Shown: positions 30,443 through 31,148 of the stretch, one piece after another | Layout of the letters: each line of letters begins with the position of its first letter | Numbering within the stretch: position 1 is the stretch's first letter | Assembly: GCA_016715065.1 (NCBI GenBank) | Contig: JADKBN010000002.1 | Coordinates: forward strand, 212,286 to 276,285 | Direction: 5' to 3' | Origin: Fibrobacterota bacterium | GTDB lineage: Bacteria > Fibrobacterota > Fibrobacteria > UBA5070 | DNA length: 64,000 nucleotides | The notes under the pieces: model-generated | Seen by the model: the letters and a program-made list of their open reading frames with translations, nothing else | Told to the model about the DNA's origin: nothing | Database searches by the model: none | Translations under genes and position numbers: made by a program

Positions 30443-30477
30443 TGAGACGAAAAACGAGACGCCCCGCCGGGGCGTCT
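30443..30477. terminator. Hairpin GAGACGAAAAACGAGACGCCCCGCCGGGGCGTCT between convergent genes (U-tract on the minus strand, so it terminates vat)
   Basis: 9-bp GC stem AGACGCCCC/GGGGCGTCT; same core as the 15732 and 39814 elements. Confidence 0.5.
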
Positions 30478-30497
30478 TTGCGTTGGTGGACGGACGA

Positions 30498-31148
30498 TCA
30501 GGCAGCCTTGGCGGCCTCTTGGAGCGCACCGATGTCGCCGGCGGTGATGATCGCGAGGTTGGCGTTGATCTTTTCGATGGGCCAATCCCACCAGCGGATC
30601 TCCTGGAGGATTGCGACCGTCGCGTCGTCGAAACGCTTCTTGAGCAGTTTGGCGGGATTGCCGCCGTAGACGGTGTAGGGGGGCACATCCTTGACCACCA
30701 AGGAGCGCGAGGAGATGATGGCGCCGTCGCCGATCTTCACGCCAGGCATGATCAGCGATTCGTATCCGATCCAAACATCGTTCCCGATGACCGTATCGCC
30801 CTTGTAGGTCAGGTCCTTCAGATCTGGAAGGACCTTTTCCCAGCCGTTGCGGAAGATCTGGAACGGAAAAGTGGAAATGCCGTCGAGCTTGTGGTTGCCG
30901 CCGTTCATGATGAACTTGGCGCCCCGCGCGATGGCGCAGAATTTCCCGATCACCAGCTTGTCGCCGATGAACGGGAAGTGGTACAGGACGTTGCGCTCGA
31001 AATTTTCCGAATCTTCCGGGTCGTCGTAGTACGTGAAGTCGCCGACTTCGATGTTCGGGCGGGTGATCGTGTTCTTGATGAAGCAGATCTGGGGAAAGCC
31101 TGCCATGGGGTGCGCGTCGCGGGGATCTGGACCGTTCATGTTCGGCAT
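30498..31148 (-). CDS. vat: Vat-family streptogramin A O-acetyltransferase (xenobiotic acetyltransferase, hexapeptide repeat)
   Basis: Close motif match to Vat/CatB: [79 protein letters not shown]. Confidence 0.8.
   Translation of the reverse strand: [216 protein letters not shown]

What the first reader, a model, noticed from the sequence alone, without database searches (positions are those of the whole stretch)
30443..31148. Vat-family streptogramin A acetyltransferase gene bracketed by a hairpin, next to housekeeping genes
The protein aligns motif-by-motif with Vat(A-E)/CatB xenobiotic acetyltransferases ([52 protein letters not shown]). Such genes confer streptogramin or chloramphenicol resistance in pathogens. 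Here it may be an intrinsic chromosomal homolog and a potential environmental resistance reservoir.
Basis: established knowledge. Interest (0 to 1): 0.5.

Follow-up and report, generated by a model that had tools for sequence, protein, structure and literature searches.

The report
Ordinary chromosomal Vat-family acetyltransferase gene

Summary
The gene is real: minus strand, 30498..31139, 213 aa. The 216-aa ORF ending at 31148 starts at an ATG that lies inside the ribosome-binding site.

**Family placement**
- It passes NCBI/AMRFinder's Vat-family model (319 bits, cutoff 300) and fails the CatB model (196 bits, cutoff 350).
- It is 51-52% identical to the solved VatA and VatD enzymes, and it keeps the catalytic His and the substrate-binding Tyr.
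- In a tree it falls in the Vat(F)-like clade, apart from CatB.

**Host and context**
- The host is an uncultured Fibrobacterota bacterium. The window is 99.6-99.96% identical to wastewater metagenome contigs.
- The gene lies between bioF-bioDA and OmpA/HrcA in every close relative examined, and it is absent from that site in a more distant Fibrobacteria MAG.
- It is under strong purifying selection (dN/dS 0.03-0.05), and no mobile element lies beside it in the window.

**Corrections and caveats**
- There is one hairpin, not two: an ordinary terminator-shaped stem-loop 3' of the gene.
- Two lineage-specific pocket substitutions (VatD A80 to Gly, P109 to Thr) and the Gram-negative-type (double-membrane) host leave the physiological substrate unproven.

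The parts
30498..31139 (-). vat-family CDS, 213 aa plus stop (the mechanical ORF extends to an upstream in-frame ATG at 31148, giving 216 aa)
   Evidence: ORF list. NCBIfam NF000311 Vat family 319.2 bits against a cutoff of 300. PDB VatA/VatD E about 1e-72. Start codon inferred from homologues and the SD position. The 213-aa product is identical to P0242 / GenBank MBK8800657.1.
31148..31153 (-). Shine-Dalgarno sequence GAAGGA, 8 nt upstream of the ATG at 31139
   Evidence: Sequence. GAAGGA is invariant in 8 related loci, whereas the overlapping upstream ATG is not (GGAGG in L082, L105, L107).
31140..31237 (-). Conserved non-coding 5' region of about 100 nt that travels with vat (presumed promoter and 5' UTR)
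   Evidence: It aligns across the window, L082, L085 and L105, including L082 where the upstream neighbour is a different, opposite-strand gene. No Rfam match. No covariation support for an RNA structure (consensus -11.2 kcal/mol, covariation term +0.19). No sigma-70 consensus found there.
30447..30477 (-). Intrinsic-terminator-like hairpin (stem 30457-30477) plus T-rich tail, between the convergent vat and 793-aa genes
   Evidence: Terminator scan and inverted-repeat search. Fold -18.9 kcal/mol, z = -1.36. The sequence is not conserved in relatives.
31260..33266 (-). Context: bioD-bioA fusion gene (668 aa) directly upstream on the same strand; possible co-transcription with vat
   Evidence: Pfam AAA_26 (dethiobiotin synthetase type) plus Aminotran_3. 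90% identical to a Fibrobacterota MAG protein. No terminator-like site predicted in the 120-nt gap to vat.
33262..34395 (-). Context: bioF (8-amino-7-oxononanoate synthase type), overlapping bioDA
   Evidence: Pfam Aminotran_1_2. Extent taken from the tblastn match of L082 BioF, 94.7% identity.
28039..30420 (+). Context: convergent 793-aa gene of a lineage-specific paralogous family, variably present around vat in relatives
   Evidence: No Pfam or NCBIfam hit. Homologues of 567-778 aa lie at different positions relative to vat in L082, L001 and L102, and are absent in L085.

Best explanation
The gene encodes a Vat-family xenobiotic O-acetyltransferase, a trimeric left-handed beta-helix (hexapeptide-repeat) enzyme of the Vat(F)-like subgroup.

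**Mechanism, by homology to VatD and VatA**
- The active site lies at a subunit interface.
- His86 (His83 in the 213-aa protein; VatD H82, VatA H87) acts as the general base. It deprotonates the secondary hydroxyl of a group A streptogramin (virginiamycin M1, dalfopristin type).
- That hydroxyl attacks the acetyl group of acetyl-CoA.
- Tyr40 (VatD Y37, VatA Y42) hydrogen-bonds the substrate or stabilises the oxyanion.
- The acetylated drug no longer binds the 50S peptidyl-transferase centre.

**Evolutionary history**
- The gene is a chromosomal resident of an uncultured wastewater Fibrobacterota lineage.
- It was inserted, with its own roughly 100-nt 5' region, between bioDA and the OmpA gene in an ancestor of this sub-clade, probably from a proteobacterial-type donor.
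- It has since been inherited vertically under strong purifying selection.
- It ends at a terminator-like hairpin.

**Shown versus inferred**
- Shown: family membership, catalytic residues, placement on the Vat rather than CatB side, synteny, selection, and absence of mobile elements.
- Inferred: acetylation of streptogramin A, any resistance phenotype, and the transcription unit.
For: **Family models**
- NF000311 Vat family 319.2 bits (cutoff 300). The best specific model is Vat(F) at 344 bits. CatB scores only 196 bits against a cutoff of 350.
- Full-length alignments to VatA (4hur, 1.5e-72) and VatD (1khr, 1.1e-70), against about 1e-51 or weaker for CatB structures.
- Identity is 52% to Vat(A), 51% to Vat(D), 48% to Vat(E) and 41-45% to CatB2/3/8.

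**Tree**
- NJ tree, 200 bootstraps. The Fibrobacterota clade has 100% support. It lies inside a clade with Yersinia, Orbaceae and other proteobacterial Vat-family proteins (82%). The split between the Vat side and the CatB side has 83% support.

**Residues** (roles from bioRxiv 10.1101/2025.01.31.635826, and PMC7885111)
- VatD H82, Y37, D39, Y52, W98, L108 and W121 are identical.
- Y54 to F, N92 to Q and L93 to I follow the usual states of the Vat(F)-like clade.
- No CatB-specific state is present.

**Existing annotation**
- Thousands of homologues at 70-76% identity are already named Vat family.
- The identical 213-aa protein is GenBank MBK8800657.1 with that name.

**Related enzymes with experimental support**
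[quoted passage not shown]

**Residency and selection**
- The order bioF-bioDA-vat-...-OmpA-HrcA holds in the window, L085 and L102-L108, with local variants in L082-L084 and L001. vat is absent in L086 and L087, where bioDA abuts OmpA and no vat remnant is found.
- dN/dS is 0.025-0.049.
- No transposase in the window matches the one in L082.
Against: - No biochemical or MIC data exist for this protein or for any Fibrobacterota Vat.
- It is below the cutoff of every named Vat allele model (best is Vat(F), 344 against 400).
- Two positions lining the VatD acetyl and antibiotic pocket carry lineage-specific residues: A80 to Gly84 and P109 to Thr114. Each state occurs in only 2 of 200 relatives, and the two occur together only in Fibrobacterota.
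- The host has a double membrane. Such bacteria are generally poorly permeable to streptogramins (established knowledge), so streptogramin detoxification may not be the selected function.
- No streptogramin B lyase or other streptogramin-related gene is nearby, and no conserved neighbour was found across 80 genomes.
- NJ bootstrap values inside the Vat side are modest.
Confidence: 0.7

Rival explanations
1. It is a Vat-like XAT-fold acetyltransferase whose physiological substrate in this double-membrane environmental bacterium is not a streptogramin. The substrate would be another hydroxyl-bearing xenobiotic or natural product, and any streptogramin A acetylation would be weak or incidental.
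For: - The pocket substitutions Gly84 (VatD A80) and Thr114 (VatD P109) are fixed in all Fibrobacterota copies and nearly absent elsewhere.
- The Vat(F)-like clade is spread through Proteobacteria, Cyanobacteria, Gemmatimonadota, Acidobacteriota and Verrucomicrobiota in unrelated chromosomal contexts with no conserved partner.
- Strong purifying selection in a host with a double membrane, which should already exclude streptogramins (established knowledge).
- The XAT fold has been recruited to very different substrates, for example ApmA acting on apramycin (PMC7885111).
Against: - All catalytic residues and most substrate-contact residues match the verified Vats.
- It passes the curated Vat equivalog model.
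- The chromosomal Gram-negative relative vat(F) is reported as a streptogramin resistance gene.
- Verified Vats themselves vary at some pocket positions; N92, for example, is H in VatA.
Confidence: 0.24
2. It is a type B (CatB) chloramphenicol acetyltransferase.
For: It shares the XAT fold with CatB proteins at 41-45% identity.
Against: - The CatB model scores 196 bits against a cutoff of 350.
- It lacks the CatB states at VatD positions 39, 80, 81, 98, 108 and 109, and lacks the one-residue insertion before the catalytic His.
- It is separated from CatB2/3/8 in the tree with 83% support.
Confidence: 0.03
3. It is a decaying or non-functional remnant, or a generic sugar or amino-acid hexapeptide acyltransferase mis-called by similarity.
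For: Only the generic Hexapep domain is found in Pfam.
Against: - It is full length and intact, with dN/dS of 0.03-0.05 across lineages whose dS is 0.17-0.82.
- It carries an SD sequence and a terminator-like hairpin.
- Maltose, galactoside and serine acetyltransferase models match only a stretch of about 55 residues, at 25-55 bits.
Confidence: 0.03

Closest known systems
Vat(F), the chromosomal streptogramin A acetyltransferase of Yersinia enterocolitica (NCBIfam NF000147), and the surrounding 'Vat family' proteins of Gram-negative environmental bacteria
   Same: - Vat(F) is the best-scoring specific model (344 bits).
- The window protein is 70-76% identical to Yersinia frederiksenii, Orbaceae, Burkholderiales, Halomonas and Shewanella members and falls in the same clade (82% bootstrap).
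- Both are chromosomal, single genes without partner genes, in double-membrane hosts.
   Different: - It is below the Vat(F) allele cutoff of 400 bits, so it is not vat(F) itself.
- It carries the Fibrobacterota-specific residues Gly84, Asp89 and Thr114, and VYGGNP in place of VVGGNP.
- The host phylum is Fibrobacterota.
Vat(A) and Vat(D), plasmid-borne streptogramin A acetyltransferases of staphylococci and enterococci (PDB 4hur, 4hus, 1khr)
   Same: - 51-52% identity over the full length.
- Same catalytic His and Tyr, the same GWEK and WW(D/N)W motifs, and most virginiamycin-contact residues.
   Different: - Vat(A) and Vat(D) are Gram-positive, on mobile plasmids, and often next to vgb or IS elements.
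- The gene here is chromosomal and syntenic.
- Pocket differences relative to VatD: Y54F, A80G, N92Q, L93I, P109T and I110Y.
VatI of the cave bacterium Paenibacillus sp. LC231 (an intrinsic environmental Vat, biochemically verified)
   Same: It is an example of an intrinsic, chromosomal, environmental Vat in a variable genomic context (PMC5155152). The VatI model scores 278 bits here.
   Different: VatI was shown to acetylate flopristin and to raise the MIC 16-fold in E. coli. No such data exist for this protein, and the two belong to different sub-clades.
CatB (type B / XAT chloramphenicol acetyltransferases: CatB2, CatB3, CatB8, PaXAT)
   Same: Same XAT fold, the same catalytic His, and 41-45% identity.
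   Different: It fails the CatB model and lacks the CatB signature residues and insertion. CatB genes are typically integron cassettes.

Membership tests
[quoted passage not shown] | Score at or above the curated cutoff of the NCBIfam/AMRFinder equivalog model NF000311 (Vat_ABCDEFH) | tested here: met
   319.2 bits against a cutoff of 300, covering model positions 1-199 of 201. The four Fibrobacterota orthologues score 319-323 bits.
[quoted passage not shown] | Hexapeptide-repeat left-handed beta-helix XAT architecture, homologous over the full length to solved Vat structures | tested here: met
   Pfam Hexapep 2.9e-11. phmmer matches to VatA 4hur (residues 3-212) and VatD 1khr (6-201), E about 1e-72 and 1e-70. 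No 3-D model was built, because 51-52% identity to solved structures made it unnecessary.
[quoted passage not shown] | Catalytic general-base histidine (VatD His82, VatA His87) | tested here: met
   His86 of the 216-aa ORF, in the motif NGGNHKLDG, aligns with VatD H82. It is His in 199 of 200 relatives. Its role is described in 10.1101/2025.01.31.635826 and PMC7885111.
[quoted passage not shown] | Substrate and oxyanion tyrosine (VatD Tyr37, VatA Tyr42) and the acetyl-subsite residues Tyr52 and Trp121 | tested here: met
   Tyr40, Tyr56 and Trp126 are conserved and invariant in 200 relatives.
[quoted passage not shown] | Streptogramin-contact residues of VatD (Y54, A80, N92, L93, L108, P109) | tested here: inconclusive
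   L108 is identical. Y54F, N92Q and L93I are the common states of the Vat(F)-like clade. A80G and P109T are rare, at 2 of 200 relatives each, and specific to Fibrobacterota. The effect on binding cannot be judged from sequence.
[quoted passage not shown] | Phylogenetic placement with characterised Vat enzymes rather than CatB | tested here: met
   NJ tree with 200 bootstraps: the Vat side is split from the CatB2/3/8 side at 83%, and the window lies in the Vat(F)-like clade at 82%. Limitations: the method was NJ only, and reference sequences for Vat(B), (C), (F), (H) and (I) were not available.
[quoted passage not shown] | Acetyl-CoA-dependent O-acetylation of group A streptogramins, and an MIC increase on expression | not testable with these tools
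   This needs enzymology and MIC assays.
Named vat alleles (vat(A)-(I)) | Score above an allele-specific model cutoff | tested here: not met
   The best is Vat(F) at 344 bits against a cutoff of 400. All others score 234-278 bits against cutoffs of 400-475.
Type B chloramphenicol acetyltransferase (CatB) | Score at or above the cutoff of NF000490, and the CatB signature residues | tested here: not met
   196.2 bits against a cutoff of 350. The residues at VatD positions 39, 80, 81, 98, 108 and 109 are D, G, N, W, L, T here, against S, Q, G, P, F, Q in CatB2/3/8.
Acquired (mobile) antibiotic resistance gene | Location on a plasmid, integron, transposon or island, or flanked by mobility genes | tested here: not met
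   - The window carries recBCD, cobQ, bio genes and hrcA, and is collinear with Fibrobacterota chromosomes.
- It has no match to the L082 transposase. That IS element is present in only one relative (L082) and absent from its near-identical sister L083.
- Only 9 of 72,556 plasmid records hold a relative at or above 60% identity, mostly megaplasmids.
- G+C is 0.589 against 0.617 for the window, but GC3 is 0.84, above the neighbours.

The most novel reading that the evidence does not exclude
The Vat(F)-like clade that is widespread in double-membrane environmental bacteria may not be selected for streptogramin resistance at all. This Fibrobacterota branch, with its fixed Gly84 and Thr114 pocket changes, may instead acetylate a different, still unidentified natural product or xenobiotic. 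[quoted passage not shown]
Probability: 0.2. Interest if true: 0.4.

Novelty: already known. Interest (0 to 1): 0.1.

Why it matters
It matters little beyond bookkeeping. It confirms that an uncultured wastewater Fibrobacterota lineage carries an intrinsic, vertically inherited Vat-family gene. The gene was gained once at a defined site, between bioDA and the OmpA gene, and kept under strong selection.

For resistome surveys, this is an example of a "resistance gene" hit that is a chromosomal resident with no sign of mobility, in a host that is unlikely to be a streptogramin target. Such hits should not be read as evidence of clinically relevant resistance or of contamination.

The one open scientific point is what such enzymes do for Gram-negative environmental bacteria.

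Tried and rejected
- **Exact look-up of the 216-aa ORF product** found nothing. This was an artefact of the wrong start codon, because the 213-aa product is on record.
- **The genome-contig scan** returned no Fibrobacterota genome, so the host was identified through the neighbouring BioDA protein instead.
- **A known RNA element or attenuator in the conserved 5' region.** Rfam found nothing at E <= 1. RNAalifold gave a weak structure with no covariation. The single-sequence fold had z = -0.85. A possible GTG-initiated leader ORF in the window is not conserved in L082 (read). The structured-leader idea was rejected.
- **Sigma-70 promoter scan.** No site was found upstream of vat. The only hit lies inside the gene on the wrong strand.
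- **A conserved functional partner.** ORFs within +/-3.5 kb of vat in 80 genomes were clustered. No family was shared beyond 6 closely related cyanobacteria.
- **Compositional evidence for recent transfer.** G+C matches the flanks. GC3 is somewhat high, which is suggestive but not conclusive.
- **The hairpin as something special.** It is ordinary in energy and not conserved in relatives.
- **Primary papers.** Those on Vat(F) (PMC89790) and on the VatA structure (PMC4249515) are not held. Their content is cited only through papers that quote them.
- **Deliberately not run.** Structure prediction and fold search were skipped because 51-52% identity to crystal structures already fixes the fold.

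Full report
**Observation**

The real start is very probably the second ATG, at 31139 (213 aa, MNGPDP...):
- The first ATG overlaps the Shine-Dalgarno sequence GAAGGA (31148-31153).
- The first ATG is replaced by GGAGG in three related loci.
- All homologues begin at MxGP.
- The 213-aa product is on record, while the 216-aa one is not.

There is one hairpin, not a bracketing pair. Stem 30457-30477 is a perfect 10-nt inverted repeat lying 20 nt after the stop. On the minus strand it is followed by CGTTTTTCGT. That is the shape of an intrinsic terminator, sitting between vat and a convergent 793-aa gene. Its energy is ordinary for this G+C-rich DNA (-18.9 kcal/mol, z = -1.36), and its sequence is not conserved in relatives.

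**What the protein is**

Scores against curated models and solved structures:

| Comparison | Result |
|---|---|
| NCBIfam NF000311, Vat family equivalog | 319.2 bits (cutoff 300), passes |
| Vat(F) allele model, best specific match | 344 bits (cutoff 400), fails |
| NF000490, CatB | 196 bits (cutoff 350), fails |
| Pfam | only the generic Hexapep repeat |
| PDB VatA (4hur) | E = 1.5e-72, full length |
| PDB VatD (1khr) | E = 1.1e-70, full length |
| PDB CatB structures | E about 1e-51 or weaker |

I fetched annotated reference genes from plasmids: vat(A), vat(D), vat(E), catB2, catB3, catB8, and several "Vat family" and "CatB-related" genes. Identity to the window protein is as follows:

| Reference | Identity |
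|---|---|
| Vat(A) | 52% |
| Vat(D) | 51% |
| Vat(E) | 48% |
| CatB2, CatB3, CatB8 | 41-45% |
| Proteobacterial Vat(F)-like proteins | 70-75% |

A neighbour-joining tree with 200 bootstraps gives these groupings:
- The window protein and four Fibrobacterota orthologues form a clade with 100% support.
- That clade lies inside a clade with Yersinia frederiksenii, Orbaceae and other proteobacterial Vat-family proteins (82%).
- The Vat side is split from the CatB2/3/8 side at 83%.

**Residue check**

Residue roles come from the VatD fragment-screening preprint (10.1101/2025.01.31.635826) and the ApmA paper (PMC7885111). I mapped the VatD residues onto the 216-aa ORF numbering:

| VatD residue | Role | Window residue |
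|---|---|---|
| H82 | catalytic base; H82A lowers activity more than 10^5-fold | His86 |
| Y37 (= VatA Y42) | substrate hydrogen bond, oxyanion | Tyr40 |
| D39 | pocket | Asp42 |
| Y52 | acetyl subsite | Tyr56 |
| W121 | acetyl subsite | Trp126 |
| L108 | hydrophobic contact | Leu113 |
| Y54 | hydrophobic contact | Phe58 (common in the Vat(F)-like clade) |
| N92 | hydrogen bond to virginiamycin M1 | Gln97 (common in the clade) |
| L93 | hydrophobic contact | Ile98 (common in the clade) |
| A80 | pocket | Gly84 (lineage-specific) |
| P109 | moves on drug binding | Thr114 (lineage-specific) |

None of the CatB-specific states is present. Gly84 and Thr114 each occur in only 2 of 200 relatives, and they occur together only in Fibrobacterota. 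The two unusual residues leave some room for an altered substrate preference.

**Host and genomic history**

The neighbouring BioD-BioA fusion protein is 90% identical to one from a Fibrobacterota MAG with a 5.8 Mb contig (CP064986.1), and 62% identical to one from a Fibrobacteria MAG. A TIGR02147 "Fsuc_second" family protein is also present. The window is 99.6-99.96% identical over 7.5-8.6 kb to metagenome contigs, one of them labelled wastewater. The window is chromosomal, carrying recBCD, cobQ, bioB, bioF, bioDA, hrcA and a CheA-like kinase.

Gene order around vat in the window and its relatives:

| Locus | Order |
|---|---|
| L085 | bioF, bioDA, vat, OmpA, HrcA |
| Window, L102-L108 | same, plus a gene of about 780 aa between vat and OmpA |
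| L082-L084 | a 567-aa paralogue between bioDA and vat; a 180-aa ORF after vat; an IS element in L082 only |
| L001 | the paralogue lies upstream of vat |
| L086, L087 (BioDA 62%) | bioDA abuts the OmpA gene; no vat and no remnant |

vat was therefore inserted once at this spot in an ancestor of the sub-clade and then retained.
- dN/dS among the copies is 0.025-0.049.
- The order of divergence is the same for vat and for bioDA.
- vat's dS is about half that of bioDA, and its GC3 (0.84) exceeds that of its neighbours (0.66-0.79). This fits either strong codon bias or a foreign, proteobacterial-like origin.
- About 100 nt upstream of the start codon (31140-31237) are conserved and travel with vat, even where the upstream neighbour differs.
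- That region has no Rfam match and no covariation support for an RNA structure. I read it as a promoter and 5' UTR.
- No terminator-like site separates bioDA from vat, so read-through from bioF-bioDA is also possible.

**Breadth of the family**

In one-genome-per-species data, 592 stretches encoding relatives were found across Proteobacteria, Cyanobacteria, Gemmatimonadota, Acidobacteriota, Verrucomicrobiota and Bacteroidota, on chromosomal contigs. No neighbouring gene family is conserved across these genomes. Only 9 of 72,556 plasmid records carry a relative at 60% identity or more.

The 213-aa product of the window is identical to GenBank MBK8800657.1, and 96.7% identical to QQS06716.1. 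Both are already annotated as Vat family.

**Mechanism and confidence**

By homology, the enzyme is a trimeric acetyl-CoA-dependent O-acetyltransferase in which His86 activates the streptogramin A hydroxyl for acetyl transfer. That modification abolishes binding to the ribosome.

- Family membership is essentially certain.
- Activity on streptogramin A is likely, at about 0.7. It is supported by the reported function of the chromosomal Gram-negative relative vat(F) and by the verified environmental enzyme VatI.
- Activity is untested here. It is tempered by the two pocket substitutions and by the fact that double-membrane bacteria are generally poorly permeable to streptogramins (established knowledge).
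- The main rival, at about 0.24, is a different physiological substrate.
- CatB identity and pseudogene status are each at or below 0.03.

**Verdict**

The feature is an already-annotated member of a very large known family, with no sign of mobility. Interest is low.

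Noticed in passing
window 31260-33266 (-), overlapping bioF at 33259-33266: BioD and BioA are fused into one 668-aa protein (dethiobiotin synthetase domain followed by the aminotransferase domain). The fusion is conserved across Fibrobacterota at 57-90% identity, and it recurs at about 40-45% identity in Desulfovibrio-like bacteria, Bacteroidota and others. Databases label it only as the BioA transaminase.
   Followed up: partly
window 28039-30420 (+) and 55536-57302 (+); L082 12142-13845 and 17440-19776; L001 2-451: A lineage-specific paralogous family of 570-790-aa proteins has an internal duplication and no Pfam or NCBIfam match. Copy number, position and orientation around vat differ between close relatives: none in L085, one in the window, two in L082. 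The bioDA-OmpA interval is therefore a local hotspot of gene-content change.
   Followed up: partly
L082 15679-17111 (CP064986.1): A DDE transposase (DDE_Tnp_1_4 / DDE_Tnp_1, called as two ORFs) lies about 700 bp downstream of vat in one Fibrobacterota genome. It is absent from the near-identical sister assembly L083 and from the window. This is a strain-specific IS insertion, and it does not flank vat on both sides.
   Followed up: partly
window 36600-38665 (-): A gene for a TIGR02147 (Fsuc_second, DUF4423) family protein plus an unannotated partner gene occurs once in the window. The pair occurs twice in tandem in L082 and L085, lying between bioB and bioF and so splitting the biotin genes.
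   Followed up: no
window 30498-31139 compared with its neighbours: vat has the highest third-position G+C of the genes checked (0.84 against 0.66-0.79) although its overall G+C is slightly low (0.589). Its synonymous divergence between lineages is about half that of the adjacent bioDA. This could reflect codon bias from high expression, or a trace of foreign origin.
   Followed up: partly
window 33262-34563 (-): The mechanical ORF for bioF starts at a GTG at 34563 (434 aa), with a Pro/Ser-rich N-terminal extension. Homologues (355-378 aa) align only from about 34395, so the long N-terminus is probably not translated.
   Followed up: no
window 44039-46261 (+): A 740-aa ORF combines cobyric acid synthase (CobQ) with an adenosylcobinamide kinase / guanylyltransferase (CobU/CobP) domain, which appears to be another enzyme fusion.
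   Followed up: no
L097 (Pasteurella multocida record) and L099 (Priestia megaterium plasmid): In P. multocida a Vat-family gene sits between hisG and hisD inside the histidine operon, on a 260-kb record typed as a plasmid. In Priestia the Vat-family gene directly follows a virginiamycin B lyase gene, a pairing that does support a streptogramin role in that branch.
   Followed up: no
window 26498-35139: This stretch is 99.6-99.96% identical to three metagenome contigs (L102-L104). One of them (L102) is named as a wastewater metagenome, which points to wastewater or activated sludge as the habitat.
   Followed up: yes
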